Source: Thermoproteota archaeon
GTDB lineage: Archaea; Korarchaeota; Korarchaeia; Korarchaeales; Korarchaeaceae
NCBI GenBank assembly: GCA_027492205.1
Contig: JAOZFN010000011.1
Location: forward strand, 129,123 to 193,122
Direction: 5' to 3'
Length of the DNA: 64,000 nucleotides
Shown here: one piece after another, positions 34,261-49,520 of the stretch
How the letters are laid out: every line of letters begins with the position of its first letter
Numbering within the stretch: position 1 is the stretch's first letter
The notes under the pieces: model-generated
Seen by the model: only the letters and a program-made list of their open reading frames with translations
Told to the model about the DNA's origin: nothing
Database searches by the model: none
Made by a program: the position numbers and the translations under genes

Positions 34261-34516
34261 GGAGTTTTACTGACCGCTCAGCGGCAAACAAGTTGGCCTA
34301 ACCGGCTGTCCCTCCCTGGGCAAAATCCCACCACAACACGCCAGCGGGGAGGGTCTTTCACGCTTGGTTGGCGGCTAAGTGGACTCTTCTCGTGACCTCA
34401 AGCGCGATTAAGCAACGTCCCTATCCGCCAATTGCCCCCATATCGATTACCCTTAGTGGGCAAAAGGGTGAAATTGTGGATTAAATTTTTCCAACCTAAT
34501 CGAGGAAGGGAGCATG

Positions 34517-34549
34517 TTTATATTGTATTCCTTCGGCAAAACGTTACCA
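34517..34549 (+). promoter_or_regulatory. TATA box plus putative operator CGGCAA-aacg-TTACCA
   Basis: TTTATATT at 34517-34524. The palindrome at 34534-34549 is shared with 46372-46387. Confidence 0.6.
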
Positions 34550-34572
34550 CACCATAGGCGAAAGGTGGTCCT

Positions 34573-36189
34573 ATGTCCGAGACCCCCCGACGTAACTTCT
34601 TGAAGGTGGCCGGAGCGGCCGTCGTGGCCGCCGCCTTGGGCATCATAGGGTATAAGGTGGCCAAGAAGCCGTCCCCGACCCCCGCCCCCACCACCCAGCC
34701 CCCCTCCACGACCGCGGCGCCGACGACCGCCCCGCCGCCGAAGGAGAAGGTCCTCATCTTCGGGCTGAAGGAGGATATAGTGACCCTCGACCCGGCGATG
34801 CACAGGAAGAGGGTCACTGAGAGCGTCATCCAGCAGTACGCCGAGCCGCTGTTCTGGAGGACCAACGACATGAGGGTCATCCCGCACCTGCTGGAGTCCT
34901 ACGAGTTCGTCGACGACCTGACCTGGAGGCTGAAGCTGAGGAAGGGGATCAAGTTCCACGACGGGACCGAGCTGAAGGCGGAGGACGTGAAGTTCACGCT
35001 GGAGAGGATCCTAGACCCCAACCAGAACTCCCCCAGGGCCAGCATGATAGACGAGATCGACACCATCACGATAATCGACGACTACACGCTGGAGATCAAG
35101 ACCAAGTACCCGAGCGGCCCGCTGATGGTGGACCTCACGTACCAGGAGATGCTGCCCAAGCATGCCGTCGAGGCGCAGGGGGAGGACTTCTTCAAGAACC
35201 CGTTCGGCACCGGCCCGTTCAAGTTCGTGGAGTGGGTGCCCGGCGAGAGGATAGTCTTCGAGAAGAACCCCGACTACTGGGGCGGTCCAGCTGAGGTGCC
35301 GCCGGTCGGCCCGCCGAAGGTCGACAAGCTGATCTTCAAGGTCATTCCGGACTCCGCCACGCGGATGCAGGCCCTGAAGGCGGGCGAGATCCACATCTCC
35401 TATGGGTTCACCGCGGACCAGGCCGAGGAGATGGCGAAAGACCCAAACCTGGTGGTCGAGAAGGTCAGGGCGGCCAGGTCCGTCTTCGTGTTCCTGAACA
35501 CCCACAAGGCCCCGTTCAACGACAAGAGGGTCAGGCACGCCCTCAACATGGCGGTGGACGTTGACGCCATCATTAAGAACGTGCTGAAGGGCTACGGACG
35601 CAGGATAGCCTGCATGTCCTTCCCCGGCGTCCTGGGGCACGACCCGAACCTGGAGCCCTTCCCGTACGACCCTGACAGGGCGAGGCAGTTGCTCGCCGAG
35701 GCCGGCTACCCTGACGGCTTTGACGCCGTCATGATGTACGACGAGGAGTGGAGGAAGGACCAGGCCGAGGCCATCGCCTACTACCTCGGGCAGGTGGGGG
35801 TCAACGTAACGATCCAGCTCATGGACTGGGGCACCATCAAGAACGAGTACCTCCTCAAGGCCAAGGGTGACATGTACTTCGGCTCCTGGGGATGCGGCGA
35901 GCTGGAGCTCTACGGGAACGTGAACTCCACCTTCGCCAGGGAGAAGGACACCTACGCGTTCCAGTACCACAACGACGAGGTCACCAGGCTTATGAAGGAG
36001 GCCCTCGCCACGCTCGACCCGGAGCAGAGGGCCCAGAAGTTCATGGAGCTCGAGAGGATCCTGCAGGAGGACGCTCCCGCCATCTGGCTGTGGGAGCAGT
36101 TCGACCCGTGGGTCTACAGGAAGGAGGTCACGTTCACCCCCAGGACCGACGAGAGGTACAACCTGGTGGATGCCGACATAAGCGTCTAA
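34573..36189 (+). CDS. Peptide/nickel-family (family 5) ABC substrate-binding protein, Tat-exported
   Basis: RRNFLK twin-arginine signal, P/T-rich linker, LRKGIKFHDG..AEDVKFT and GTGPF. Confidence 0.95.
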   Translation: MSETPRRNFLKVAGAAVVAAALGIIGYKVAKKPSPTPAPTTQPPSTTAAPTTAPPPKEKVLIFGLKEDIVTLDPAMHRKRVTESVIQQYAEPLFWRTNDMRVIPHLLESYEFVDDLTWRLKLRKGIKFHDGTELKAEDVKFTLERILDPNQNSPRASMIDEIDTITIIDDYTLEIKTKYPSGPLMVDLTYQEMLPKHAVEAQGEDFFKNPFGTGPFKFVEWVPGERIVFEKNPDYWGGPAEVPPVGPPKVDKLIFKVIPDSATRMQALKAGEIHISYGFTADQAEEMAKDPNLVVEKVRAARSVFVFLNTHKAPFNDKRVRHALNMAVDVDAIIKNVLKGYGRRIACMSFPGVLGHDPNLEPFPYDPDRARQLLAEAGYPDGFDAVMMYDEEWRKDQAEAIAYYLGQVGVNVTIQLMDWGTIKNEYLLKAKGDMYFGSWGCGELELYGNVNSTFAREKDTYAFQYHNDEVTRLMKEALATLDPEQRAQKFMELERILQEDAPAIWLWEQFDPWVYRKEVTFTPRTDERYNLVDADISV

Positions 36190-36232
36190 TCCTTCCCCCC
36201 TCTCTCTTTTTTAGGCGGGAGCGTGTGCGCCA

Positions 36233-37258
36233 ATGTTAGACAGTGATCTCCTCCGGCTGATCGGACGGCGGATCGTCGGCCTCATTCCCGTGATGTTTGG
36301 AATTGCGATAATCGTCTTCCTGGTGTTCAGCTTCGTCCCGGGGGACCCCGTCACCATGCTGATAGGTAAGCAGAGCGACGTCAGCGAGGAGTTCATTCAG
36401 CAGCTCAGGCACAAGTACGGACTTGACAGGCCCCTCTACGTCAGGTTCTTCTACTTCCTGAGGCAGCTGATTCACGGGGACGTCGGCATATCCTACCAGT
36501 TCAACAGGCCAGCCTTGGAGGTGGTTCTCGAGAGGCTCCCGGCCACGGTTGAGCTGGCCTTCTTCGCCCTGGCCGTGGCCATCGTGATAGCCATCCCCGC
36601 CGGCATATTCGCCGCCCTGAAGGGAGGGGCGGTGGACAGGGGCATCGTGGGCCTCTCCGTGGTGGGCTTCTCGATGCCCAACTTCTGGATAGCCATGCTG
36701 CTCATCCTAGTGTTCGGGACGACCCTCAAGGTCCTCCCCATCTCGGGGAGGCTGGACGTCACCCTGACCGTCGAGAGGGTGACGGGCTTCTACATCCTCG
36801 ACGGGATACTCGCCGGGGACTGGGAGGTGGTCAGGTCAGCCCTCAGCCACATAATCCTCCCGGCCCTGTCGCTGGGCATCCCGGCGGCGGCCCTGATAGT
36901 GAGGCTCCTCAGGAACAACCTGATCAGCGTCCTTGGGGCCGAGTTCATCAGGGCGGCCAGGGCCAGGGGCCTCAGGGAGAGCGTCGTGATTTACAAGCAC
37001 GCCCTCAGGAACGCCCTCATACCGACCATAAACATCGTCGCCCTCCAGCTCGGCTTCTTCCTCACGGGATCCTTCTTCGTGGAGACCGTGTTCGCGTGGC
37101 CCGGCATGGGCAGGCTGGCCGTAGACGCGATTTACGCAAGGGACTACCCGGTCGTCATAGCCGCCGTGATGATATCGGCTCTCTTCTTCGTTCTCTCCAA
37201 CCTGCTGGCGGACATCCTGATTCTCGTGACGGACCCGCGCACCAGGGGGGTGAGGTGA
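36233..37258 (+). CDS. Peptide ABC permease (DppB-like)
   Basis: PGDP, GLDRPL, ARARGL, ETVFAWPGMG, RDYPV. Confidence 0.95.
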   Translation: MLDSDLLRLIGRRIVGLIPVMFGIAIIVFLVFSFVPGDPVTMLIGKQSDVSEEFIQQLRHKYGLDRPLYVRFFYFLRQLIHGDVGISYQFNRPALEVVLERLPATVELAFFALAVAIVIAIPAGIFAALKGGAVDRGIVGLSVVGFSMPNFWIAMLLILVFGTTLKVLPISGRLDVTLTVERVTGFYILDGILAGDWEVVRSALSHIILPALSLGIPAAALIVRLLRNNLISVLGAEFIRAARARGLRESVVIYKHALRNALIPTINIVALQLGFFLTGSFFVETVFAWPGMGRLAVDAIYARDYPVVIAAVMISALFFVLSNLLADILILVTDPRTRGVR

Positions 37259-38176
37259 GTGAGCAGGACGCTGACGACTCTCCGCGAGGACCTCCTCAGG
37301 TTTCTGGGGGGCCCCACCGTCAGTTACATGAAGAGAGACCCCGGCGCGATAGTGGGCGGGACGATATTCCTCGTGTTCGTGATGTCCGCCCTGTTCGCCG
37401 GGGTGGTCGCGCCACACGATCCCTACCAGGCCGACCTGGCGAACTCCCTGCAGCCCCCCGTGGGGTTCGGCGGATCCTGGGAGCACCCGTTGGGGACGGA
37501 CGCGATCGGGAGGGATCTCCTGAGCAGGCTGATATACGGGGCTCGGATCTCGCTGTCCGTCGCGGCCGTGTCGGTGACCCTGGCCGTCCTCGTTGGGGTC
37601 TCGCTGGGGGCCCTGTCTGGGTACTTCGGGGGGCTCATAGACGAGGTTCTGATGAGGATAGTCGACTTCTGGCTGAGTTTCCCGGCGGTGCTCATGGCGA
37701 TCTCCCTGATGGTCGTCCTGGGACCGGGCTACTGGAACGTGGTCGCCGCCATGACCCTCACGTCCTGGGTCCCGTTCGCGAGGGTCGTGAGGGGAGAGTT
37801 CCTCACGCTGAAGGAGAGGCCCTTCGTCCTGGCGGCGAAGGCCATAGGGGTGGGGAGCGCCCACATAATATTCCGGGAGGCCCTGCCCAACACCTTCCCG
37901 TCGCTGATCGTGCTCTCAACGTTCCAGCTGGCCAGGAACATAATCTACGAGGCCTCGCTCAGCTTCATCGGGATAGGCGTGAAGCCTCCGAACCCGTCGT
38001 GGGGCCTCATGCTGGGCACCGGGAGGCAGCACATCCTGGACGCCTGGTGGATCGCCATGTTCCCCGGGCTCGCGATAACCCTGGTCGTGCTGGGGATCAA
38101 CCTGCTGGGTGACTCGCTCAGGGACGCGCTCGATCCCACCATCAAGAAGAGGCTGGGGGTTGTGGAGGTACAATGA
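37259..38176 (+). CDS. Peptide ABC permease (DppC-like)
   Basis: HPLGTDAIGRDLLSRLIYGARISL and EASLSFIGIG. Confidence 0.95.
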   Translation: MSRTLTTLREDLLRFLGGPTVSYMKRDPGAIVGGTIFLVFVMSALFAGVVAPHDPYQADLANSLQPPVGFGGSWEHPLGTDAIGRDLLSRLIYGARISLSVAAVSVTLAVLVGVSLGALSGYFGGLIDEVLMRIVDFWLSFPAVLMAISLMVVLGPGYWNVVAAMTLTSWVPFARVVRGEFLTLKERPFVLAAKAIGVGSAHIIFREALPNTFPSLIVLSTFQLARNIIYEASLSFIGIGVKPPNPSWGLMLGTGRQHILDAWWIAMFPGLAITLVVLGINLLGDSLRDALDPTIKKRLGVVEVQ

Positions 38177-39141
38177 CGGCGCTTCTCTCGCTCCGGGACG
38201 TGGCCAAGTACTTCGAGATCAGGAGGGGAGTTTTCGAGAGGAGGGTTGTCAAGGCCGTCGACGGCATCAGCTTCGACGTCGAGGAGGGGCAGACCGTCGG
38301 GCTCGTCGGCGAGAGCGGGTCCGGAAAGTCCACCCTGGCGCTGACGGTGCTGAGGCTCTACGAACCTACCGGGGGGCAGGCCATATTCGAGGGCGTCAAC
38401 CTGTTCGAGCTCAAGGGGAGGGAGCTCACCAGGGTCCGCAGGAAGATGGGCATAGTGTTCCAGGATCCCTACCTCTCCCTCAACCCGGTGAAGAGGGTCA
38501 GGGACATAGTCGGCCTGCCGCTGAAGGTGCACATGCCCAAACTGAGCTTCGAGGAGAGGGAGTCAATGATCAGGGAGATGCTGGAGCAGGTTGGGCTCAA
38601 GGCGGCTGACGTAGAGAAGTTCCCCCACGAGTTCAGCGGCGGGCAGAGGCAGAGGATAGCCATAGCCAGGGCCCTGATAGTCAAGCCGAAGTTCCTCATA
38701 CTGGACGAGCCCACGTCGGCCCTGGACCTCTCGGTTCAGGCGAAGATCCTCAACCTGCTGCTGGACCTCCAGAGGGAGTTCAGGCTCACCTACCTCTTCA
38801 TAACCCACGACATGAACGTGATCAAGCACATCTCGGACAGGATCAACGTGATGTACCTCGGGAAGCTGGTGGAGTCCGCCGAGACGGAGGAACTCTTCGA
38901 GAGGCCGCTCCACCCCTACACGAGGGCCCTCCTCTCCTCCGTGCCGACGCTCGACCCGAGGCAGAGGGGGAGGAAGAAGATGCTCCTCCGCGGGGACCCC
39001 CCAGATCCCGCCAACCCCCCGCCGGGGTGCAGGTTCTCGAGCAGGTGCCCGCTGGCCGACGACCTCTGCAGGAGGGAGGAGCCGCCCCTGGTGCAGGTTG
39101 AGCCGGGGCACTGGGTCGCCTGCCACAAGGTCGGGGGGTGA
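38173..39141 (+). CDS. Peptide ABC ATPase (DppF-like)
   Basis: GESGSGKST, FSGGQRQR, PLHPYT, GCRFSSRC. Confidence 0.95.
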   Translation: MTALLSLRDVAKYFEIRRGVFERRVVKAVDGISFDVEEGQTVGLVGESGSGKSTLALTVLRLYEPTGGQAIFEGVNLFELKGRELTRVRRKMGIVFQDPYLSLNPVKRVRDIVGLPLKVHMPKLSFEERESMIREMLEQVGLKAADVEKFPHEFSGGQRQRIAIARALIVKPKFLILDEPTSALDLSVQAKILNLLLDLQREFRLTYLFITHDMNVIKHISDRINVMYLGKLVESAETEELFERPLHPYTRALLSSVPTLDPRQRGRKKMLLRGDPPDPANPPPGCRFSSRCPLADDLCRREEPPLVQVEPGHWVACHKVGG

Positions 39142-39151
39142 TTGGTGGAAG

Positions 39152-40231
39152 ATGCTCCGGATGGTGGCCCTGGCTGGAGATCCCCACGAGATGGGGCTTC
39201 AGCTGGGGAAGGAGATAAGGGGGCTGACCCCGTACATCCGAGAACTATTCGACGCAGTCAGGAGGGAGATAGGGGAGAACCCTTCCCTGGAGAAGCTCGT
39301 GGAAGACATGAGAGAGGTAGTCGAGAGGCACTCCCCCGAGTTCATCCAGATGCTGGAGGGGGTGGCGGAGGGGGCCTGGTTCGCCAGGGACATCCTCTTC
39401 GAAACCACCTGCTCCACGTTCCTCCGGCACATGCTCCACTACGGCCTCGAGTGCTCGGTCTGGGCGGTGAAGGCAGAGCACACATCCCTCGGGGAGCCGA
39501 TCTTGGCCAAGAACAGGGACAAGAGGGTCAGATACAAGCCGCTGCACCTCTTCGTCTACGCCCGGCCGAAGGGCGGCTTGGCGTACTTCGCCTCCACCAA
39601 CGCCGGCGACCCGGGCGTGGCGGGGGGCGGCATAAACGAGAGGGGACTCACGGTGTTCTCCACGTACGTGGCCTCCTCAGACATCGGCGTGGGCCTGCCA
39701 GACAACGTCCTGGCGAAGATGATACTCGAGAGCTGCTCCACGGTGGAGGAGGCCATCGACCTCCTGAAGTCGGTTCCCAGGCTGGGGCAGTTCACCTTCA
39801 CGCTGGGGGACGCCAAGGGGGACATTGCGGTGGTCGAGGTGGGATACAGCGAGCTGGACGTGGAGATCCCGGAAGAGGGGTACGCCTTCCGCACGAACCA
39901 CTTCAAGTCGGCCCGGATGAGCGAGAAGTACTACGACCCATACCACTACACGGCCTACGAGAAGGAGGACACCCTAGCCAGGTGGAGGCACCTGGACGAG
40001 AGGGTGAGAGGCGCCCTCGGCACCATAGACCTCAACTTCGTGAAGAGGCTCATGAGGTACCACGACCCCGGCGGGCACTCCATCTGCAGGCACGTCGGCG
40101 AGGGGGACGTGCCGGTGGAGACCGTGGCCTCAATGATAGCGCTTCCAAAGAGGTCTAGGATCCTGTTCGCGGAGGGGCCCCCCTGCGAGCACCCCTACGT
40201 AACCCTCGACCTCGGAGGTGGTATGCCGTGA
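39152..40231 (+). CDS. C45 family autoproteolytic Ntn acyltransferase/peptidase
   Basis: Pro-domain followed by LE|CSVW (Cys nucleophile), LAKNRD, GINERGL, RTNHF and SICRH. Confidence 0.88.
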   Translation: MLRMVALAGDPHEMGLQLGKEIRGLTPYIRELFDAVRREIGENPSLEKLVEDMREVVERHSPEFIQMLEGVAEGAWFARDILFETTCSTFLRHMLHYGLECSVWAVKAEHTSLGEPILAKNRDKRVRYKPLHLFVYARPKGGLAYFASTNAGDPGVAGGGINERGLTVFSTYVASSDIGVGLPDNVLAKMILESCSTVEEAIDLLKSVPRLGQFTFTLGDAKGDIAVVEVGYSELDVEIPEEGYAFRTNHFKSARMSEKYYDPYHYTAYEKEDTLARWRHLDERVRGALGTIDLNFVKRLMRYHDPGGHSICRHVGEGDVPVETVASMIALPKRSRILFAEGPPCEHPYVTLDLGGGMP

Positions 40232-41205
40232 CGCTCCTCGAGATACGAGACCTGAAGGTGTACTACTACGCCTTCGACGGCGTGGTCAAGGCCGTCGACG
40301 GCGTGTCACTAGAGCTCGAGAGCGGGGAGTTCTTCGGCCTCATCGGGGAGTCGGGGTGCGGGAAGTCCACCCTAGGCAACGCGATCCTCAGGCTCGTGCC
40401 CCCGCCCGGGAGGGTGGTGGGTGGGAGCATCTACTTCCAGGGAGAGGACATCCTTCGGCTCCCCGAAGACAGGATGAGGGAGATCAGGGGAGACCGAATC
40501 TCGATGATATTCCAGGACCCCACGGCCGCCCTCGACCCCGTCTACACGATAGGGGACCAGATAGTCGAGACCATACTCGCCCACAACCCGGAGGTGAGTA
40601 AGAAGGACGCCGAGGCCCGGGCGATAGAGCTGCTTAAGCTCGTGGGCATCCCCGGGGCGGAGGCCAGGGTCCACGAGTACCCCCATCAGTTCAGCGGCGG
40701 CATGCGGCAGAGGGCGGTCATCGCAATAGCCCTCGCCAACAACCCAGAGCTGCTGATAGCCGACGAGCCCACGACGAACCTGGACGTCACTATAGAGGCC
40801 CAGATCCTCACGCTGCTCGACGAGCTGAGGAGGAAGCTCAACATGTCCATCCTGCTGATCACCCACAACATTGGCATTGTGGCCGAGTACACGGATCGAG
40901 TGGGCGTTATGTACGCCGGGAAGCTCGTCGAGGTGGGCAGGACCGTCGACGTGCTCACTGACCCGAAACACCCTTATACCCAGGGACTGCTGGGCGCGAT
41001 ACCGGGCAGGGGTGGTAGGAAGGGGCGGGTTACCGAGATCCCCGGGACGGTCCCGAACCTGGCGAACCCCCCTCCCGGGTGCAGGTTCCACCCCAGGTGC
41101 CCCAGGAGGTTTGACCCCTGCGACCAGGAGGAGCCGGCCCTCGTGCCGCTCCCCGGCGAGGGGAGGATGGTGGCATGTCACCTGTACAGGAGGCCCGAAA
41201 GCTGA
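40228..41205 (+). CDS. Peptide ABC ATPase (DppD-like)
   Basis: GESGCGKST, MIFQDP, FSGGMRQR, GCRFHPRC. Confidence 0.95.
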   Translation: MTLLEIRDLKVYYYAFDGVVKAVDGVSLELESGEFFGLIGESGCGKSTLGNAILRLVPPPGRVVGGSIYFQGEDILRLPEDRMREIRGDRISMIFQDPTAALDPVYTIGDQIVETILAHNPEVSKKDAEARAIELLKLVGIPGAEARVHEYPHQFSGGMRQRAVIAIALANNPELLIADEPTTNLDVTIEAQILTLLDELRRKLNMSILLITHNIGIVAEYTDRVGVMYAGKLVEVGRTVDVLTDPKHPYTQGLLGAIPGRGGRKGRVTEIPGTVPNLANPPPGCRFHPRCPRRFDPCDQEEPALVPLPGEGRMVACHLYRRPES

Positions 41206-41213
41206 ATGAGAAC

Positions 41214-42158
41214 ATGCTCGAGATCCTGGCCATCCTCGACGGGATCGAGGGGCCGGCCACGTCGGGCGAGATTCAGCGGGAACTCAACAGGAGGGGCATC
41301 TACCTCAGCCAGAGGACGATCCGTTACTACCTGAAGCTCATGGACGAGCTTGGGCTCACAAGGAAGGTCAGGAAGGCCAGACAGATAACCAGCGAGGGCC
41401 GCAGGAGGATGCGGGCCCTCACCGTCTCCACCAGGATGGAGTGGATGCTGGACAGGATGTACCAGAGGATCGCCGAGATGGACTTCGACCTCGCGACCGG
41501 CAGCGGGTCGGTGATAGCCAACAAGCTGTTCATCAGGAGGGAGGACTTCACCTGGGTTATGCAGCACGTGATCAGCCTCGGGAAGGAGGTCCCGAGGCTC
41601 CTCTTCTACCCGAGGTATAAGGTCAGGGAGACCGGCCTGAGGAAGGGAGACCTGCTCGAGATCAAGTACGTCTCCTCAAACACCCTGTACGGCATCCTCC
41701 TCCGCAACGGAGTTCCGGTTAGCGTGAAGGGCGTCGGACTACTGGAGCTGAAGGACTACAGGCCCACGACGTTCGCGGAGGTCATGCACTACTCCGGGAC
41801 CACCATAAGCCCCTCTCAGCTCCTCATATTCGCCGGCATGACGAGGGTCGCCGAGGCGGCCAAGAGGGGGACGGGCACGGTCCTGGCCACCTTCGGTGAG
41901 ATCCCCTACAACAGCATACCCAAGGCGCAGAAGATCCTGAACAAGATGAAGGAGCTGGGCTTCGAGGGGATAATGGAGATCAGGGAGCCCGGCTTCGCCT
42001 ACGGTCTCCGAACCGGAAAGCTCAGGGGAGTGGTGATCAGCGTCACAGGGGCCAACTTTGCGGCCATGATCAAGGAGGGCGGATTCGACCTAAGGATGGC
42101 CTTTGACACCGCCATGGACGACCTCGGCGCCTTCGACAGGAACGTCATCCCCGTCTGA
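41214..42158 (+). CDS. NrpR-like regulator (wHTH plus single NRD/DUF128 domain)
   Basis: EILAIL...SQRTIRYYLKLMDELGLT HTH, FDLATGSGSVIAN, SSNTLYGILLRNGVP, YSGTTISP. Confidence 0.82.
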   Translation: MLEILAILDGIEGPATSGEIQRELNRRGIYLSQRTIRYYLKLMDELGLTRKVRKARQITSEGRRRMRALTVSTRMEWMLDRMYQRIAEMDFDLATGSGSVIANKLFIRREDFTWVMQHVISLGKEVPRLLFYPRYKVRETGLRKGDLLEIKYVSSNTLYGILLRNGVPVSVKGVGLLELKDYRPTTFAEVMHYSGTTISPSQLLIFAGMTRVAEAAKRGTGTVLATFGEIPYNSIPKAQKILNKMKELGFEGIMEIREPGFAYGLRTGKLRGVVISVTGANFAAMIKEGGFDLRMAFDTAMDDLGAFDRNVIPV

Positions 42159-43554
42159 CCTGGGACACCGAGTCCAGCAGGATCTTGAGCGCCTTGTCTG
42201 GCTCCTCGCCCGAGAGGAGGCCCATAGCCCAGAAAACGTAGTCCCTGTCCACGTACAGCTCCGGGTTCTTCGGCTTCAGAACGAAGGGGCGGGACTCGTC
42301 GTAGATAGCCTCGCCGAGGACCTTCCACGGCCTCCTGCTGTTGACGATCGGGCCTCCGGTCCCGACCACGGTCTCAACCTCGGTGAGATCCTTACCCGTC
42401 AGGACGTAGAACCTGCCCATCGGCGTCGGTATCTCCTCGAGCCTCCCAACGTGTCTCTCCACGGCCAGCTCCACCGCCGACCTTGCCAGCGCCTCGTCCA
42501 CCAGCCAGTCGAAGTAGGTCCTGGGCAGGTAGCTGGTCTGCCGGCGCAGCATGCGGATGTGCTCCTCAACGGCCTCCGGCCTTATGTCCGTCACGTACTC
42601 CCTCATCTTGGACAAGATCCTCTCCAAGCCCGCGGCCTCCATCAGCGACTCCGCGCTCACCCTGACGCCCAGGTCTCCCTCCACGGTCCTCTTCACGTAG
42701 GGCTCCTCAAGGCCCTTCTCAACGACCCCCGGGAGCTTCGACCTGCCCTCGGCCACGCTGTACACGTTTGTCGTGGCCCCGCCGATCTCCACCGCGAGGA
42801 GCTCGCCCATCCCGCTAAGCGACTTGGTCCCCTTCGCCAGCAGCTCCGCCGCCTCCAAGGAGGCGGAGGGGGTCGGCATGAGGATGTGGAGCAGCTTCGT
42901 CACCTTATCGAGCCCCTTGGCCTGAATGATCCTCTTCAGGAAGATCTCCCTGATCTTCTCGTTTGCGGGCCTAACGTTGAGCTTTCCCAGCTCCGGCATG
43001 ATGTTCTCGGTCCAGTAGACCTCCTTACCCGCCGATGAGAGTATCTCCACCACGTCGTCCCTGGCCTCCTTGTTCCCAGCCACCAAGATGGGACATTTCA
43101 GCCCGGAGGCGGCAAGCATCCTGGCGTTGTGGGTTATTGTCTTCTTGTCTCCCCCGTCCGTCCCGCCCGTTAGGAGGACGATGTCAGGTCCCTGGGCCTC
43201 TATCGACGCCACCTCGCTCTTGGTGAGTTCGAAGGAGTACACCCCAATGACCTTCGCTCCGGCCGTCAGCGCCGCCCGCCTGCCAGCCTCGGCGCTGTAC
43301 TTCGGCACGAGCCCGACCACGACCATCTTCAAGCCGCCGGCCGCGCTGCTGCAGGCCAGCTTGTACTCGAACGGGCCATCGGACAGGTCGCTCAGCGAGA
43401 GCCCCAGCTTCTCCAGGGCGCTGGCCAGGCCGCGCCTGATGTCCGTGTCAACGGTGCTGGGGGCCTTGGCGGAGGAGACCACCCGCTCCTCCGCCAGGTC
43501 CACCACCACGGCCTTGGTGAAGGTGCTGCCGAAGTCTATGAGGAGGGCCCTCAA
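42145..43554 (-). CDS. glmL: GlmL/MutL-type (ASKHA) accessory ATPase for B12 mutases
   Basis: IDFGSTFTK, ACSSAAGGL, GGTDGG, IGGATT, KRTVEGDLG. Confidence 0.9.
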   Translation of the reverse strand: MRALLIDFGSTFTKAVVVDLAEERVVSSAKAPSTVDTDIRRGLASALEKLGLSLSDLSDGPFEYKLACSSAAGGLKMVVVGLVPKYSAEAGRRAALTAGAKVIGVYSFELTKSEVASIEAQGPDIVLLTGGTDGGDKKTITHNARMLAASGLKCPILVAGNKEARDDVVEILSSAGKEVYWTENIMPELGKLNVRPANEKIREIFLKRIIQAKGLDKVTKLLHILMPTPSASLEAAELLAKGTKSLSGMGELLAVEIGGATTNVYSVAEGRSKLPGVVEKGLEEPYVKRTVEGDLGVRVSAESLMEAAGLERILSKMREYVTDIRPEAVEEHIRMLRRQTSYLPRTYFDWLVDEALARSAVELAVERHVGRLEEIPTPMGRFYVLTGKDLTEVETVVGTGGPIVNSRRPWKVLGEAIYDESRPFVLKPKNPELYVDRDYVFWAMGLLSGEEPDKALKILLDSVSQVRRG

Positions 43555-43557
43555 GGG

Positions 43558-44643
43558 CTATTCGCCCCTCACGAATGCCACTATCTCCTCCGCAGACATA
43601 CCCTCCAGCCCGAGGTTCTTCGCGCTCCGCCCCTCGGCGTAGAAGTCCCTGTCGAAGACCGCCGACGCTATGGATATGAGGGACTTGGACACGGGAGTGC
43701 TCACGCCGACCTGCTCCCCAACGTCCGCGTATGGGACCAGGCCGGTGGGGACGTCTTCAAGCAGGTACCTGACGGCGAGCGTGGAGGGCGCCTTGATACC
43801 CCTATAGGCCTCGTTGTTCTGCAGGGCCTCGTAGACATCCCTCCCCCTAGCTCCGTACTTCTCCTCGAGCCACTCCAGCAGGTTCAAGACGTGAGTGTCG
43901 AGCGCCCTCGCCAGGGCCACCCTCTCGGCGTCGACCCTCTCTAGCACCTTTGAGACGGAGGGGCTGGCGCCCTCGACGTAGAACTCGAAGTCTCCACCGC
44001 GCTCGATCCAGCCGGCGTTCATGAGCGTTATGGTAGGGTGGAAGACCGCCCCGATATTGGTCAGGCTGGTCTCGAGGACATCCCTGGCCCCGTCGAACTG
44101 CGGGTACAGCTGGCGGATCGTGTCCAGCAGCTCTCCGGTGTCGGGAGCTGGGAGGGCGGCCAGCTTGACCTCCTTCTTGACTCCCAGCACCTTCACCCTG
44201 GTGGGCGACAGCCCCCTGGCCGCGTAGACCAGGGTCTCGGCCTCCCCGACTATCACGCCCTCGGCCCTCTCACCCAGTATCCTCTTGAACTCGATCGCTC
44301 CGAAGGTCCTGCCGGGGTTCAACAGGATCTCCTGACCCGGCTGAAGGTGGGGAGCAACCGACCGGGCGATGTACTTGTGGGCGTGAGCGGGGACGACCAC
44401 CATGATCAGGTCGGCGCCCCTCACGGCCTCCCCGGCGTCGGTGGTGGCGAGGGCGATGGGGCCGAAGCCCTCCACCGCCCCCTCCAGCTCTATCCCCCCC
44501 TTCCTCCTGACCTCCTCGAGGTCCACCTTGAACTCCGGCTCCTTTTCCTTGTAGTTGTAGAGCCTGACCTCGTGCCCCATCAGTCCCAGGTGGGCGGCCA
44601 TGGCCTTTCCGCCGTGGCCCGCTCCCATCACGGCTATCTTCAT
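43558..44643 (-). CDS. NAD(P)-dependent opine (octopine/nopaline) dehydrogenase family protein
   Basis: GAGHGG Rossmann motif, LLNPGRTFGA, NIGAVFHP, RYLLEDVPTGL. Confidence 0.92.
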   Translation of the reverse strand: MKIAVMGAGHGGKAMAAHLGLMGHEVRLYNYKEKEPEFKVDLEEVRRKGGIELEGAVEGFGPIALATTDAGEAVRGADLIMVVVPAHAHKYIARSVAPHLQPGQEILLNPGRTFGAIEFKRILGERAEGVIVGEAETLVYAARGLSPTRVKVLGVKKEVKLAALPAPDTGELLDTIRQLYPQFDGARDVLETSLTNIGAVFHPTITLMNAGWIERGGDFEFYVEGASPSVSKVLERVDAERVALARALDTHVLNLLEWLEEKYGARGRDVYEALQNNEAYRGIKAPSTLAVRYLLEDVPTGLVPYADVGEQVGVSTPVSKSLISIASAVFDRDFYAEGRSAKNLGLEGMSAEEIVAFVRGE

Positions 44644-44673
44644 CCAATCGCCTCCCACAGATTCACGCTAAGC

Positions 44674-46359
44674 TCAGATGAGCCTTCCCTTGAAGTAGTC
44701 GTCCAAGATCCTCTGGATGCGCTCGCTCTCGGGGAGGGGCCTCTTGGTCTCCGGGTCGACCGCGTAGGCGGCCCCGTTGATGATCCTGGTCTCGATCTCT
44801 CCTCTGGCGTAGGGGTTGTTCTTCAGGTGAGGCGCGTCCAATATCCCTATCTTCAGGGCCCTGGCGAGCGTCTCGGGGTCGGTCCACGGGTCCTCGACAT
44901 CGGGGTCAGCGATCTTCCTGATAGCGTCTAGCGTGATATTGGCCTCCCTCACCAGCTCCTCCCTCCTGGCCTGGATCTTCGGGTCCTTGGTCACGTCGGG
45001 CAGGCCGTGCAGCGTGTCGCTGATCACTTGATGCACGATCTTGCCGCTCTCTATGATCTCCTCAGCCGTGGCGGCGTGATCGGGCTCGGTGTACGCCACC
45101 ATGTGAATTATGTGGGGCTTTAGGTGCATCTGCATCGTCACGGAGTAGGCCATGTGGCCCTTGGCCGCGTCGAGGTCCGGCGGGTAGCTGGACAGACCGG
45201 TCCTGGTTTGAATGAAGATCTTGAAGTTCTCGTCTTCTAGGGGCTTGATTATGTCTATCTTGGCCAGCTGCTTGGCCAGGTCCATCTCGGCCGAGATCCC
45301 TGGCGGGAGGTCGAACATCAGCGTGGCGATGTAGTGCTTTACCCCCGCCTTCTTGGCGTTGTAGGCTGACAGAAATGCGTCGGCCACCGCGATTACGTCG
45401 GGCGCATCCCTCAGCTCGAAGTGGTGGGGCTCGTTCAGCTCGACGGGGATGTTCCTCTCGCCGTGCCAGGCCATCAGCCTCTGGTGCTCGTCTATGGCCT
45501 CGACTAGGTCCAAGGGGCCCCTTCCGTCGAGCCTGCTGAACCAGAAGATCGGGATGGCCGCCCAGGCGTTCTTGATGGTCCTCACCAGGAGGTCGGCCAT
45601 CTTGAACAGGTCGCTGGTGCCCTGGTAGCACCTCAGAAGCGGGTAGTTGCCGGTCCTGGTGGCCTCGTAGATCCTGATGAGGTCGTCCTCCGACCTTATG
45701 GGCACGCCTCCAGCCCCGGCCCTCCCGGGATCCCACTTCTCCGGGTGGAAGAAGTTCTCCTGGAACTCCTGGTCTGGGGCTATTGAGATCACGTCGATGA
45801 GCTTGGACTCGGCCACCTTCCTGGCCGCCTCCACGGTCTCCTCGACGGAGCTCAGCCCAAGGTGCTGCCTGATGATGGGGTAGGGGTACTTCCAGGCGAT
45901 CCTCTCGACGGTCGTCTGCGGGTAGTGCTCTTCTCCCCTGCCAGCTTCGCCCCCTCCCTTCAGGTAGGACACGACCTCGTCCATGGTCTCCCTGCCGCTG
46001 AACACCCTGTCGAAGAACCCGAAGCTCTTGGCCACCTCGGCGACGGGCGGAGTGCCCCCGAACACGTACCTCTTGTCCTCCAGGCCAGCCTCCTTCACCG
46101 CGCTGATAAACCGCTCTATCCAGTACCTTCCAGACTCTGGCATCAGCCTGTAGCTTATTCCGACTATGTCGGGGTCTGTCTCCTTTATCGCCGCCACTAT
46201 CTCCTCGGGGGTGTTTGCCGGCCCCAGGAATATCGTCTCATATCCGACCTGCTCTGCCAGCCTCAGAAACTTGATTATTCCAGCAACGTGGACGTCCTCG
46301 CCAAGGGCGGCGGCGAGGATCTTTGGTCGCCTTCCCTCACTCCTCTCGCCGGACGACAT
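44674..46359 (-). CDS. Cobalamin-dependent enzyme: N-terminal B12-binding domain fused to a probable TIM-barrel
   Basis: GEDVHVAG (DxHxxG), VGISYRL and FGG. The roughly 420-aa C-domain has no radical-SAM CxxxCxxC. Confidence 0.88.
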   Translation of the reverse strand: MSSGERSEGRRPKILAAALGEDVHVAGIIKFLRLAEQVGYETIFLGPANTPEEIVAAIKETDPDIVGISYRLMPESGRYWIERFISAVKEAGLEDKRYVFGGTPPVAEVAKSFGFFDRVFSGRETMDEVVSYLKGGGEAGRGEEHYPQTTVERIAWKYPYPIIRQHLGLSSVEETVEAARKVAESKLIDVISIAPDQEFQENFFHPEKWDPGRAGAGGVPIRSEDDLIRIYEATRTGNYPLLRCYQGTSDLFKMADLLVRTIKNAWAAIPIFWFSRLDGRGPLDLVEAIDEHQRLMAWHGERNIPVELNEPHHFELRDAPDVIAVADAFLSAYNAKKAGVKHYIATLMFDLPPGISAEMDLAKQLAKIDIIKPLEDENFKIFIQTRTGLSSYPPDLDAAKGHMAYSVTMQMHLKPHIIHMVAYTEPDHAATAEEIIESGKIVHQVISDTLHGLPDVTKDPKIQARREELVREANITLDAIRKIADPDVEDPWTDPETLARALKIGILDAPHLKNNPYARGEIETRIINGAAYAVDPETKRPLPESERIQRILDDYFKGRLI

Positions 46360-46371
46360 GCGACCACCCAG

Positions 46372-46414
46372 CGGTAAGGTGTTGCCGGGTGGACGGTCTT
46401 AGGTTCCTTAAAAA
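46372..46414 (-). promoter_or_regulatory. TATA-like box plus putative operator CGGCAA-cacc-TTACCG
   Basis: Minus-strand TTTTTAAG at 46414-46407. The palindrome at 46387-46372 lies 12 nt before the ATG. Confidence 0.6.
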
Positions 46415-46730
46415 CACTAGCAAATATACCACATAAATGTTTATCACTTCCCTTCATTTTCTTGTTACCGGAAAAGGGTAACATACATTTGAGGTCCGCG
46501 CGAGAACGCCGGACTTGCCGGCAACAACCGTTGGGTGGTTGTCCGGCGGCGTATGAGCGATTTAAGCGCCTGCAGAGAATGGAGTTCAGATAGTCCCGGC
46601 AACTCTGGAGGGTCGAAAAATGGGCATATGGAGCGGCTATTGAGGCGTTTCCCCGAGTTCGGCAAGGACGCCGGTCAGGGCCGTGGTACGATGACAATGG
46701 TTATGACGAAGGCGCCTGGGAGAGGCTCCC

Positions 46731-47276
46731 GTGGGGGACCAGGAGTTCGAGGCCGTGATCCAGGTTGCTCGACTCATGCTGGTGGCCGCGAGAACCGCCC
46801 CAAAGGCAAAGGGGGTTGACTCGATCGAGGCCACGATCGCCACGGGGGACGACCTGTCGAGGCTGGCGGAGAAGATGCGGGAGCTCTCTCGGGAGAGGGG
46901 CTACTCCTTCTACGAGAGGGATGCCGGGAGCGTTGAGGCCTCCGACTGCGTCGTGGTGATTGGCGCAAGGGCTCAGGAGGCGCTGGGCATGGACTGCGGG
47001 ATGTGCGGATACCCGAGCTGTGCTGAGCGGGTAGAGTAGTGGAGATCCCGAGGTGAGCCAATGAGAGGCCCATTCTGTGAGTTCAAGGTCATGGACTTGG
47101 GCATAGCGGTTGGATCGGCTGTCAAACTCGCTTCCCTCCTCAACGTTGACAACAGAGTCATGTACAGCGTGGGAGACGCCGCCATTTCCCTGGGGCTGCT
47201 CCCCGGATCGACCGTGGCCCTTGGGATACCGCTTGCGGCGAGGGGTAAGAGCCCCTACTTCGACAGGAGGGGGTAA
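46731..47276 (+). pseudogene. DUF2148 ferredoxin-domain protein with one in-frame TAG
   Basis: AARTAPKAKG..., DCGMCGYPSC, TAG at 47037-47039, then in the same frame GPFCEFKVMDLGIAVGSA..VDNRVMYSVG..KSPYFDR. Confidence 0.85.
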
Positions 47277-47348
47277 CGATCGATATTATGTCTTGGTGAA
47301 ATATTAAGTTATCTGTTTACCAACACGAGATCCCGGCGGAGACGTCCG

Positions 47349-47753: not shown

Positions 47754-49520
47754 GTGGCCGTCAAGCTTCCGGTAAACCTGGCGAGGGTCCTGTACGTGGA
47801 CCTCACCAGGAAGAGGTCCTGGGTGGAGGATCGGAGGGATCTGATCGAGGAGTACCTCGGAGGCGTTGGCCTGGCGGTGGCCCTCGCCAGAGAGGAGGGA
47901 GTGGAGAGGGCCGATCCTCTGGGCCCGGAGAACAGCGTAGTGTTCGCGGTGGGCCCGTTCAATGGGGCCTACCCGATGGGGTCCAAGACCGTCGCGGTGT
48001 TCAGGAGCCCCCTCACCGGCAACCTCGGCGAGAGCTACGCCGGGGGGAGGAGCAGCCTCGCCATCAAGTTCGCCGGCTACCAGGCGATAGTGATCAGGGG
48101 GGCCAGCGAGTCCCCGGTGTACGTCGCAGTTCACGAGGATGAGGTGAAGTTCAGGGACGCAAGCGCCCTGTGGGGCATGTCCAGCAGCGAGACCGTGGGC
48201 AGGGTGATAAGGGAGAGGGAGCCGAACCCCGGGTTCAGGACCATAATGAGGATTGGGCTGGCCGGGGAGAGGCTAGTGAGGTTCGCCTGCGTGGTCACGG
48301 AGACCTACCGACACTTTGGGAGGCTCGGGCTCGGAGCCATCTTCGGGGCCAAGAGGCTCAAGGCCCTGGTGGTCTCCGGAAGGCGATCCCTGGAGGTCCC
48401 CGACAGGCGGGGATACAGGGAGGTGTACGACGAGCTCTACGAGCTCTCCACCAAGTCCAACCTGATGAGGAAGTATCACGACCTGGGCACGCCGATGAAC
48501 GTCCTCCCCCTGAACGAGATCGGGGCCCTACCGACGAAGAACCTCAAGTCGGGCAGGTTTGAGCGCGCCGATGGCATCTCAGGCGAGCACATGGCCGAGA
48601 ACTACCTGATACGAAGGGCCGCCTGCTCCGGCTGCCCGGTCGCCTGCATACACCTGGCGGGGATCAGGGAGCCCTACCCCCACGAGAAGTACTTCTACAA
48701 GACCACGGTCGTTTCCTACGACTACGAGCCCACCTACTCGCTCGGGAGCATGCTGGGGGTTGGAGACGCCAAGTGGCTCCTCAGGCTCATCCACGAGGTG
48801 GAGAGGGTTGGGCTGGACGCAATGAGCACCGGCGTCGCCCTGGCGTGGGCCACGGAGGCGCTGGAGCGCGGGCTGGTCAGGGAGGAGGACACGATCGTGA
48901 AGCTGAGGTGGGGCGACGCCGAGGCCTATAGGAGGGCAATCTCCCTGCTGGTCGAGCAGCCGAACGATTTCTACTCTGCGCTGGCACAGGGTGTGGAGAG
49001 GGCGTCTCAGATCTACGGAGGATCTGAGTTCGCCATGGCGTTCGGCGGGAATGAGATGCCCGGGTATCACACCGGCCCGGCCGCCCACATCGGCTTCCTG
49101 ATAGGCGGGAGGCACAGCCACCTCGACAACGCCGGCTACTCTTACGATCAAAAGAGGGCCGAGCTCCCAGATCCTGAGCAGGTTGTGGACGACCTCATGG
49201 CCGAGGAGGCCTGGAGAATGGTCCTCAACAGCCTAGTCGTGTGCCTCTTTGCGAGGGGGATCTACAGGCCAGAGGTGGTCTCCAAGGCCCTGGCCCCGCT
49301 CGGCATAAGGCGCTCCGTAGAGGACCTCCGGGAACTCAGCTGGAGGATCTACCGCGAGAGGATGAGGCTCAAGGTGGACGCGGGCTTTGACCCGTCTAGG
49401 CTCAGGGTCCCGGACAGGATCTTCGAGACGCCGAGTCCCCACGGCCTGATATCCCCCGACTACGTTCAGAGGGCGCTGGAGCACTACCGCCAGAGGCTAA
49501 AGGATATCTGCTCTCCGTAG
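47754..49520 (+). CDS. Tungsten aldehyde ferredoxin oxidoreductase family protein
   Basis: YLGGVG, SPLTG..GESYAGG, GRLGLGAIFGAKRLKA, CSGCPVAC, GLDAMSTG. Confidence 0.95.
   Translation: MAVKLPVNLARVLYVDLTRKRSWVEDRRDLIEEYLGGVGLAVALAREEGVERADPLGPENSVVFAVGPFNGAYPMGSKTVAVFRSPLTGNLGESYAGGRSSLAIKFAGYQAIVIRGASESPVYVAVHEDEVKFRDASALWGMSSSETVGRVIREREPNPGFRTIMRIGLAGERLVRFACVVTETYRHFGRLGLGAIFGAKRLKALVVSGRRSLEVPDRRGYREVYDELYELSTKSNLMRKYHDLGTPMNVLPLNEIGALPTKNLKSGRFERADGISGEHMAENYLIRRAACSGCPVACIHLAGIREPYPHEKYFYKTTVVSYDYEPTYSLGSMLGVGDAKWLLRLIHEVERVGLDAMSTGVALAWATEALERGLVREEDTIVKLRWGDAEAYRRAISLLVEQPNDFYSALAQGVERASQIYGGSEFAMAFGGNEMPGYHTGPAAHIGFLIGGRHSHLDNAGYSYDQKRAELPDPEQVVDDLMAEEAWRMVLNSLVVCLFARGIYRPEVVSKALAPLGIRRSVEDLRELSWRIYRERMRLKVDAGFDPSRLRVPDRIFETPSPHGLISPDYVQRALEHYRQRLKDICSP

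What the first reader, a model, noticed from the sequence alone, without database searches (positions are those of the whole stretch)
34534..46387. Same operator-like palindrome in front of both convergent operons, with NrpR-operator geometry
Seen: CGGCAA-aacg-TTACCA (+, 34534-34549) and CGGCAA-cacc-TTACCG (-, 46387-46372) are identical at 13/16 positions. Each lies between a TATA-like box and the first start codon, 11.8 kb apart. Known: the Methanococcus NrpR operator is GGAA-N6-TTCC. These sites read GGCA-N6-TACC, the same 14-bp spacing. Inference: the locally encoded NrpR-like protein represses both operons through a diverged operator. This independently supports treating the ten genes as one regulon and suggests an NrpR paralog repurposed as a pathway-specific sensor.
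Basis: partly seen in the sequence, partly recalled or inferred. Interest (0 to 1): 0.75.

Follow-up and report, generated by a model that had tools for sequence, protein, structure and literature searches.

The report
Shared operators of an NrpR-like regulon
Two neighbouring operons of an uncultured heat-vent archaeon carry the same pair of short DNA sites in their promoters. The sites are most likely the binding sites of a very divergent relative of the methanogen nitrogen repressor NrpR that is encoded in one of the operons.

Summary
CGGCAAaacgTTACCA (34534-34549, +) and CGGCAAcaccTTACCG (46387-46372, -) match at 13 of 16 positions, and each lies between TATA-like boxes and a start codon.

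Taken alone the match is only mildly unusual (p about 0.018), and the motif is not enriched genome-wide (3 found, 2.6 expected).

Three further results make it convincing:
- The two promoters are the richest, and tied second-richest, 200-bp windows of the genome for the half-site.
- All four elements are kept in the only two orthologous loci, and the changes there fall in spacers or at the degenerate position.

Regulator, mutase operon and sites occur together in 3 genomes only. The sole local DNA-binding protein is a single-NRD NrpR-family member below 38% identity to anything else.

Binding, repression and the effector are inferred, not shown. The targets are a peptide/opine importer and a B12 mutase-opine dehydrogenase operon, not nitrogen genes. 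The scan has noted NrpR-type operators on other DNA before.

The parts
34447..34463 (+). P1 distal element TTACC-cttagtg-GGCAA (everted repeat of the half-site), about 65 bp upstream of the TATA-like box
   Evidence: sequence. TTACC-N7-GGYAA occurs only at P1 and P2 in the 1.94-Mb genome. It is a conserved island in G003 with flanks diverged; GGCAA becomes GGTAA and one spacer base changes.
34480..34490 (+). AT-rich box ATTAAATTTTT (possible second TATA or upstream promoter)
   Evidence: Conserved in G001 and G003. No transcript data.
34517..34524 (+). TATA-like box TTTATATT of P1, centred 53 nt before the ATG
   Evidence: Conserved. AT-rich octamers in this genome peak 28-36 nt before start codons, so P1 probably has a leader of about 25 nt.
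34534..34549 (+). P1 proximal palindrome CGGCAA-aacg-TTACCA (the finding)
   Evidence: Half-sites are unchanged in G001 and G003; the spacer reads aagg there. The only variant listed inside it in 4 metagenome runs is spacer position 34542 (list truncated).
34564..34569 (+). Shine-Dalgarno-like GGTGGT before ATG 34573
   Evidence: The same GGTGGT precedes the P2 start.
34573..36189 (+). Family-5 solute-binding protein with a Tat signal (peptide/opine/nickel type)
   Evidence: Pfam SBP_bac_5, E 7e-99. All NCBIfam matches are below their cut-offs.
36233..38176 (+). Two ABC permease genes (36233-37258, 37259-38176)
   Evidence: Pfam BPD_transp_1.
38173..39141 (+). ABC ATPase (Opp/Dpp type)
   Evidence: Pfam ABC_tran + oligo_HPY.
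39098..40231 (+). C45-family autoproteolytic Ntn acyltransferase/hydrolase, inserted between the two ATPase genes
   Evidence: Pfam AAT, E 1.8e-22. NCBIfam C45_proenzyme, 188 bits against a cut-off of 85. The alternative frame 39142-40158 has no family.
40228..41205 (+). Second ABC ATPase
   Evidence: Pfam ABC_tran + oligo_HPY.
41175..42158 (+). NrpR-family regulator (winged helix + one NRD domain, 327 aa); last gene of the P1 operon, with no AT-rich box in front of it
   Evidence: Pfam NRD1_2, 159 bits (cut-off 25), and HTH_12, E 1.6e-13. Only PF01995 gene in the genome. NRD matches PDB 3nek, E 2.8e-12. GGAGG-type site before ATG 41175.
42145..43554 (-). GlmL-type mutase accessory protein
   Evidence: NCBIfam accessory_GlmL, 585 bits against a cut-off of 475. 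Pfam MutL PF13941.
43558..44658 (-). Opine dehydrogenase
   Evidence: Pfam Octopine_DH. PDB 1bg6, N-(1-D-carboxylethyl)-L-norvaline dehydrogenase, E 4.5e-83.
44674..46359 (-). Fused B12-binding + methylaspartate-mutase-E-like protein (561 aa); first gene of the P2 operon
   Evidence: Pfam B12-binding at residues 13-128. Many of the listed homologues at 55-62% identity carry PF06368 as well.
46372..46387 (-). P2 proximal palindrome CGGCAA-cacc-TTACCG (the finding)
   Evidence: 16 of 16 positions are kept in G001 and G003, while the 12 nt upstream of it diverge in G003.
46407..46438 (-). Three TATA-like boxes of P2 (46438-46431, 46429-46422, 46414-46407)
   Evidence: Conserved in G003. Which one is used is unknown.
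46465..46481 (-). P2 distal element TTACC-cttttcc-GGTAA
   Evidence: 17 of 17 positions are kept in G003 with flanks diverged. Only 4.5% of 17-nt windows of that spacer are fully conserved.
46515..46524 (.). Palindrome TTGCCGGCAA (two abutting half-sites) further upstream of P2
   Evidence: Not kept in G003, so its function is doubtful.

Best explanation
The two convergent operons form one small, self-contained regulon. One operon (P1, 7 genes) encodes a peptide/opine-type ABC importer, a C45 hydrolase and the regulator. The other (P2, 3 genes) encodes a fused B12 mutase, an opine dehydrogenase and GlmL. Each promoter carries two sites built from the same half-site, GGYAA. The proximal site is an inverted repeat, GGCAA-N4-TTACC, between the TATA-like box and the start codon, over or just after the predicted transcription start. 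The distal site is an everted repeat, TTACC-N7-GGYAA, upstream of the TATA boxes. I propose that the NrpR-family protein encoded at 41175-42158 binds these sites as a dimer or a higher oligomer. From the proximal site it would block RNA polymerase, and the distal site would add cooperativity. A small-molecule effector would release it. Because its gene is the last of the P1 operon, it would also repress itself. Shown: the sites, their uniqueness, their conservation, and the co-occurrence of protein and sites. Inferred: binding, the sign of regulation, the oligomeric state and the effector.
For: (1) Proximal sites are exact at the given coordinates and match at 13 of 16 positions. (2) A second shared element, TTACC-N7-GGYAA, occurs at these two promoters and nowhere else in 1.94 Mb. 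(3) Of 77404 overlapping 200-bp windows, the P2 region has the most half-sites (6). P1 ties for second (5) with two other loci. Even after removing the two half-sites present by construction, 3 or more occurs in only 0.85% of windows and 4 or more in 0.15%. (4) In both orthologous loci available (G001 and G003, 2 of 2) all four elements are kept. The G000-G003 spacers are only 58% (P1) and 66% (P2) identical. The three G003 changes inside the elements fall in two spacers and at the Y position. Inside the two P1 elements, the only variants listed in 4 metagenome runs are spacer positions 34457 and 34542 (list truncated; no single-base variants were listed for the P2 promoter). (5) The regulator is the only PF01995 gene in the genome and the only DNA-binding family among the ten genes and their flanks. 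(6) The regulator occurs in 3 of 43 genomes of the phylum. The full-length mutase occurs in 3 of 38 genomes of the order. They are the same 3 genomes. (7) The site has the frame of GGAAN6TTCC (PMC2723118 passage) and the TATA-then-operator layout described for NrpR operons (PMC8809328 passage). (8) The recognition helix is close to the family consensus: QRTIRYYL against ERxVRYHL. (9) Beside a canonical single-NRD NrpR gene (30% identical, next to Glu-synthase-like and glnA genes, G038), the next promoter has two tandem AGGAAA-N4-YTACCG sites, each after a TATA-like box. Their right half is the same as here.
Against: No binding, expression or transcript-start data exist; no RNA holder was listed. 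Only three closely related loci could be compared, and no orthologue between 38% and 89% identity was found. The P1 proximal site also lies inside a block conserved from the TATA box to the ATG, so its conservation is not specific to the site. The exact NrpR consensus is not met; the third base of each half differs. An everted N7 site and an inverted N4 site are hard to fit to one rigid dimer. The distance from TATA box to proximal site differs between the promoters (9 nt, against 19 to 43 nt). The G038 sites could not be tested for conservation, because G052 lacks the synteny, and the loose pattern there was not enriched (4 found, 2.3 expected). My upstream-region null uses rough gene calls of my own.
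Confidence: 0.55

Rival explanations
1. The sites are real operators but are bound by a different transcription factor, encoded elsewhere in the genome. The NrpR-like protein would then act elsewhere or only sense a signal.
For: No direct link between protein and site exists. The everted N7 element does not look like any published NrpR operator (one search gives only GGAAN6TTCC). Archaeal genomes encode many factors that bind palindromes (own knowledge).
Against: The sites occur only at this island. The island occurs only in genomes that have the NrpR-like gene. No other DNA-binding family lies in or next to the island. The frame and outer bases match NrpR operators.
Confidence: 0.2
2. The similarity is chance, and the conservation only reflects the short evolutionary distance and the general constraint on core promoters.
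For: A 13-of-16 match arises in 1.8% of random upstream pairs. The motif count is at background. The third exact hit (contig C9, before a Pyr_redox_2 gene) is not kept in G003. 11.5% (P1) and 20.8% (P2) of 17-nt spacer windows are conserved at 15 or more positions.
Against: Two different composite elements are shared, and each is unique or nearly unique in the genome. The two promoters top the genome for half-site density. The distal elements are conserved islands inside diverged sequence. Substitutions avoid the half-sites.
Confidence: 0.1
3. The proximal element acts in the mRNA leader, for example as a hairpin that hides the ribosome-binding site, and not as a DNA operator.
For: The P2 leader can fold CCACCCGGC against GCUGGGUGG, covering the Shine-Dalgarno sequence: -22.1 kcal/mol, z -1.8, with 10 of 200 shuffles folding as well.
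Against: The P1 leader shows no excess structure (z +0.6 in G000 and +0.58 in G003), and the G003 P2 leader gives z -0.24. The fold does not use the shared palindrome as a unit. No Rfam family matched apart from one weak microRNA hit at E 0.11. The distal elements lie upstream of the TATA boxes and cannot be in the leader.
Confidence: 0.05

Closest known systems
NrpR of Methanococcus maripaludis with its nif, glnA and glnK-amtB operators (consensus GGAAN6TTCC; passages in PMC2723118, PMC4902934 and PMC8809328)
   Same: Winged helix plus NRD domain family. A 14-bp palindrome with outer GG/CC and inner A/T. The operator is placed after a TATA box. More than one site per promoter; the title of Lie et al. 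2005, seen in reference lists, speaks of two operators.
   Different: One NRD domain instead of two. At most 37% identity to any other family member. The half-site is GGCA/TACC instead of GGAA/TTCC. The second site is everted, has a 7-nt spacer and lies upstream of the TATA box. The targets are an importer and a B12 mutase/opine dehydrogenase operon, not nitrogen assimilation genes. The host phylum has the family in only 3 of 43 genomes. The cysteine of the CSxT motif, present in most aligned relatives, is serine here; its role in 2-oxoglutarate sensing is recalled and was not checked.
Methanosarcina NrpR1 (single-NRD, DNA-binding subunit; passage in bioRxiv 10.1101/2020.06.15.153874)
   Same: Domain layout of winged helix plus one NRD. 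Repressor of an operon whose promoter carries BRE, TATA and an NrpR operator.
   Different: In Methanosarcina a second gene (nrpR2) supplies the other subunit, according to that preprint. Here there is only one PF01995 gene in the genome. The regulon also differs.
Single-NRD NrpR gene beside Glu-synthase-like and glnA genes in genome G038 (locus L052)
   Same: 30% identical protein with the same architecture. The promoter next to it has two sites AGGAAA-N4-YTACCG after TATA-like boxes: same spacing and same right half-site as here.
   Different: Nitrogen-gene context. The left half is the canonical GGAAA. The sites are tandem and not split around the TATA box. Those sites are untested and could not be checked for conservation.

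Membership tests
NrpR family (protein) | N-terminal winged-helix DNA-binding domain | tested here: met
   Pfam HTH_12, E 1.6e-13, residues 16-77. The recognition helix aligns with the family; R47 is nearly invariant and R50 is invariant.
NrpR family (protein) | NRD regulatory domain (PF01995) above the curated cut-off | tested here: met
   159.3 bits against a cut-off of 25. PDB 3nek, E 2.8e-12. The score is about half that of a canonical member, which gives 313 bits.
NrpR system (operator) | Palindromic operator GGAA-N6-TTCC | tested here: not met
   The sites read GGCA-N6-TACC. 6 of the 8 specified positions and the 14-bp frame agree; the third base of each half does not.
NrpR system (operator) | Operator directly after the TATA box, at or near the transcription start | tested here: inconclusive
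   The sites lie 9 nt (P1) and 19, 34 or 43 nt (P2) after TATA-like boxes and before the start codons. No transcript start is known, and no RNA holder was listed.
NrpR system (regulon) | Controls nitrogen fixation and assimilation genes (nif, glnA, glnK-amtB) | tested here: not met
   The only two site pairs in the genome precede an ABC importer operon and a B12 mutase/opine dehydrogenase operon.
NrpR system (signal) | Released from DNA by 2-oxoglutarate | not testable with these tools
   Needs binding assays. The CSxT cysteine, present in most aligned relatives, is serine here; its link to 2-oxoglutarate is recalled and was not checked.
NrpR system (assembly) | Dimer or tetramer that contacts paired half-sites | not tested
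   No complex prediction was run. The 3nek entry holds two chains.

The most novel reading that the evidence does not exclude
An NrpR-family protein has been taken out of nitrogen control. It would serve as the private, self-repressing switch of a ten-gene uptake and breakdown island (opine/peptide importer, C45 hydrolase, opine dehydrogenase, fused glutamate-mutase-like B12 enzyme). That island is confined to 3 genomes of a lineage that otherwise lacks the family, which suggests horizontal acquisition. It would read a changed half-site (GGCAA) in two geometries, one inverted at the transcription start and one everted upstream of the TATA box. It would answer to a pathway metabolite instead of, or as well as, 2-oxoglutarate. 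This would be the first NrpR relative with a non-nitrogen regulon that I know of. Two literature searches turned up no paper describing an NrpR relative with a non-nitrogen regulon.
Probability: 0.35. Interest if true: 0.6.

Novelty: new variant of a known kind. Interest (0 to 1): 0.45.

Why it matters
In the passages read here, NrpR is described as the 2-oxoglutarate-sensing nitrogen repressor of methanogens. A clean, two-promoter, single-regulator unit with an altered half-site and non-nitrogen targets would show how this family changes both DNA specificity and signal. It also gives a small, directly testable system: one protein and four short sites. In addition it ties together, as one regulated pathway, a widespread but uncharacterised fused B12 mutase, an opine dehydrogenase and a peptide/opine importer. 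That narrows the search for the mutase's substrate.

Tried and rejected
- Other genome hits. The third exact hit (contig C9, just before a Pyr_redox_2 gene) is not kept in G003 while its flanks are, so I read it as chance. The fourth degenerate hit (contig C4) lies in the first codons of an ORF and was not pursued; my attempt to scan that ORF failed on coordinates.
- One-mismatch scan. It gave 54 hits, 25 in DNA that my calls treat as non-coding. None of those others lies within 100 nt of a called start behind an AT-rich TATA-like box.
- More orthologues. Genome contigs gave 3 loci and metagenome contigs 1. The word-index search gave 4 proteins. The full HMMER search found 331 proteins, but nothing between 38% and 89% identity. 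L011 and L013 are one 4.2-kb contig without promoters.
- Transcript data. No RNA holder was listed.
- Island borders. The search in genomes that lack the island was inconclusive because their contigs are too fragmented.
- G052, the relative of G038, lacks the synteny, so the tandem sites there could not be tested.
- Recalled Methanosarcina motif. I recalled a different operator form for Methanosarcina NrpR. A literature search did not support it (the hits were papillomavirus papers), so I dropped it.
- A search for a recalled extended nif operator string found nothing.
- PMC2075042 is not held, and the 2010 structure paper was not found. The role of the conserved cysteine therefore stays a recollection.
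- Rfam and tRNA scans of the region were empty apart from one weak microRNA hit.
- The sigma-70 and terminator scan is not applicable to archaeal promoters and added nothing.
- One search failed on a length limit and was resent.
- No complex or structure prediction was run.
Full report
**The observation**
They agree at 13 of 16 positions.
- The exact core GGCAA-N4-TTACC occurs twice in the window, against 0.05 expected from shuffles.
- Each arm pair is an imperfect inverted repeat: GGCAA against TTACC gives 4 of 5 complementary positions.
- At P1 the site begins 9 nt after TTTATATT (34517-34524) and ends 23 nt before ATG 34573. That ATG is preceded by GGTGGT.
- At P2 it lies after three TATA-like boxes (46438-46431, 46429-46422, 46414-46407) and ends 12 nt before ATG 46359, which also follows GGTGGT.

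**Gene context**
- P1 drives seven genes: a Tat-signal family-5 binding protein, two permeases, an ATPase, a C45 autoproteolytic hydrolase (39098-40231, not the frame 39142-40158), a second ATPase, and an NrpR-family protein.
- The NrpR-family protein has HTH_12 plus one NRD domain and is 327 aa long. It more likely starts at 41175 behind a GGAGG-type site, and no AT-rich box precedes it.
- P2 drives three genes. The first is a 561-aa fusion of a B12-binding domain with a domain that many homologues score as methylaspartate mutase E. The second is an opine dehydrogenase (PDB 1bg6, E 4.5e-83). The third is GlmL (585 bits, cut-off 475).
- No other DNA-binding family lies in the unit or in the small ORFs of the two spacers.

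- Upstream of the TATA boxes both promoters carry a second element built from the same half-site, but everted. P1 has TTACC-cttagtg-GGCAA (34447-34463). P2 has TTACC-cttttcc-GGTAA (46481-46465).
- TTACC-N7-GGYAA occurs at these two places and nowhere else in the 1.94-Mb genome. The three counted matches are P1 once and P2 on both strands.
- The looser TTRCC-N7-GGYAA adds only two hairpin-like TTGCC...GGCAA sites elsewhere.
- Further GGCAA copies lie upstream in both spacers.

**Is it more than chance?**
- Evidence for chance. A 13-of-16 match between two 70-nt upstream regions arises in 1.8% of 20000 random pairs drawn from 897 such regions (gene calls are my own rough ones). The motif is at background genome-wide: 3 found, 2.56 expected. 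The third exact hit, before a Pyr_redox_2 gene on contig C9, is lost in G003 while its flanks are kept.
- Evidence against chance. Of 77404 overlapping 200-bp windows, the P2 region holds the most half-sites (6). P1 ties for second (5) with two loci elsewhere on the contig.
- The half-site was defined from these regions. Even after removing the two sites present by construction, the remainder (4 and 3) is matched by 0.15% and 0.85% of windows.
- A calibration is useful. In a genome with a two-NRD NrpR (G033), the canonical pattern occurs 28 times against 37 for the reversed control. Background frequency does not argue against an operator of this family.

**Conservation**
- The only orthologous loci with promoters are in two congeneric genomes, G001 (regulator 98% identical) and G003 (90%).
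- In both, all four elements are present.
- Between G000 and G003 the spacers are 58% (P1) and 66% (P2) identical. The P2 distal element is kept at 17 of 17 positions and the P2 proximal element at 16 of 16, with diverged sequence next to each.
- The three G003 changes inside the P1 elements are one spacer base in each element and GGCAA to GGTAA, which is the form used at P2.
- Contigs of four metagenome runs from four studies, laid at 80% likeness, list variants at 34457 and 34542 (both spacer positions) and at 34531, just outside the proximal site. None is listed in a half-site.
- That list was truncated (1417 rows not shown), and no single-base variants were listed for P2.
- Caveat: the P1 proximal site sits inside a block conserved from TATA to ATG. 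Also, 11.5% (P1) and 20.8% (P2) of 17-nt windows are conserved at 15 or more positions.

**Who binds?**
- The NrpR-family gene is the only PF01995 gene in the genome.
- Its family occurs in 3 of 43 genomes searched in the phylum.
- The protein query matched 5 of 41 'relatives' genomes: G000, G001, G003 and two distant archaea at 27-30% identity. Among the family's other genomes it matched 2 of 24.
- The full-length mutase is found in 3 of 38 genomes of the order, the same three. The other 14 matches are weak hits to the B12 domain only.
- So regulator, target operon and sites travel together. Record titles call two of these genomes Thermoproteota and Nitrososphaerota MAGs.
- Against 1.84 billion representatives, the protein's own cluster stands alone. 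The next relatives are at most 37% identical, and 331 proteins reach E 0.001 or better.
- In an alignment with 21 relatives, the recognition helix is close to consensus (QRTIRYYL against ERxVRYHL). The wing lacks the usual glycines. The cysteine of the CSxT motif of the NRD is serine.

**Comparison with known NrpR operators**
- The published consensus is GGAAN6TTCC (passage in PMC2723118). [quoted passage not shown] 2-oxoglutarate lowers binding (passages in PMC4902934 and bioRxiv 10.1101/2020.05.06.080432).
- The present sites keep the 14-bp frame, the outer GG/CC and the inner A/T, but change the third base of each half.
- Beside a canonical single-NRD NrpR gene (G038, 30% identical, next to a Glu-synthase-like gene and glnA), the following promoter shows two tandem sites AGGAAA-N4-YTACCG. 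Each follows a TATA-like box, before a GAGGTGA-ATG start. This form is intermediate between the consensus and the sites here.
- That evidence is weak. The loose pattern was not enriched in the locus (4 found, 2.3 expected), and the only relative, G052, lacks the synteny.
I could not test it and use it only as a lead.

**Rival explanations**
- RNA element. The P2 leader can fold into a hairpin that covers the ribosome site (z -1.8). The P1 leaders do not (z +0.6), nor does the G003 P2 leader (z -0.24). Rfam found nothing relevant. The distal elements are not transcribed from these promoters.
- Another regulator cannot be excluded, but it would have to be dedicated to an island that brings its own.
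- Pure chance is hard to reconcile with two shared composite elements, each unique or nearly unique in the genome.

**Mechanism proposed**
- AT-rich boxes in this genome peak 28-36 nt before start codons, so most genes have short or no leaders.
- The nearest boxes at P1 and P2 are centred 53 and about 51 nt before the ATG. This predicts leaders of about 25 nt, with transcription starts inside the proximal palindromes.
- A dimer on the proximal site would then block polymerase, as described for NrpR.
- The distal site would add cooperative binding through a higher oligomer, or could serve activation.
- The regulator represses its own operon.
- The effector is open. 2-oxoglutarate is the family precedent. 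Opines, pyruvate, glutamate or methylaspartate are suggested by the enzymes.
- All of this paragraph is inference.

**Verdict**
- It is a new variant of a known kind. It is of moderate interest mainly because the targets are not nitrogen genes, the half-site has changed, and the system is small enough for a direct test.

Noticed in passing
window 46731-47277 (+), stop at 47037-47039: An ORF with a CGMCGYPSC Fe-S motif (Pfam FeS, E 2.8e-4) is interrupted by an in-frame TAG. G001 and G003 have an alanine codon at that place and one continuous frame. This is a strain-specific nonsense change or an assembly error.
   Followed up: partly
window 44674-46359 (-): The 561-aa B12 protein belongs to a large family with few or inconsistent names. 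6492 of 8000 scored candidates reach E 1e-10 or better. The listed homologues are 541-615 aa long and 55-70% identical apart from its own 99% cluster. Many of the source names that are given point to Chloroflexota and Anaerolineae. Some are labelled methionine synthase or methylmalonyl-CoA mutase subunit. Many carry PF06368 (methylaspartate mutase E), so it looks like a fused glutamate-mutase-like enzyme of unknown substrate.
   Followed up: partly
window 39098-40231 (+): A C45-family autoproteolytic Ntn hydrolase gene sits between the two ATPase genes of the ABC operon and overlaps both. This is an unusual place for an enzyme gene.
   Followed up: no
L052 3511-3551 (genome G038): Two tandem AGGAAA-N4-YTACCG sites lie 27 bp apart, each after a TATA-like box, in front of a Glu_synthase-domain gene directly downstream of a canonical single-NRD nrpR gene and near glnA.
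   Followed up: partly
window 46364-46392 (-): The P2 leader can form a 9-bp hairpin that pairs CCACCCGGC with GCUGGGUGG and covers the ribosome-binding site (z -1.8). The equivalent G003 leader scores z -0.24.
   Followed up: partly
G000 contig C17 about 83700-83900 and 79200-79400 (outside the window): Two other 200-bp windows hold 5 GGYAA/TTRCC half-sites each, without palindromic arrangement. One lies in apparently non-coding DNA, the other inside an ORF.
   Followed up: no
G000 contig C4 70170-70183: GGCAAaaggTTGCC, the only perfectly symmetric form of the motif in the genome, lies in the first codons of an ORF about 30 nt after an AATTATAT box. The ORF's family was not determined.
   Followed up: no
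window 47754-49520 (+) and relatives: The aldehyde:ferredoxin oxidoreductase next to the island gives 5 to 14 matching places per related genome. The counts are matches, not copy numbers, and some genes are split across contigs.
   Followed up: no
L008 1852-1865 and 1949-1982 (genome G003): In G003 both P1 elements gain a third half-site: GGGAA-N4 in front of the distal TTACC, and GGCAA 8 nt after the proximal TTACC. This gives GGNAA-N4-TTACC-N7/8-GGYAA at both sites.
   Followed up: partly
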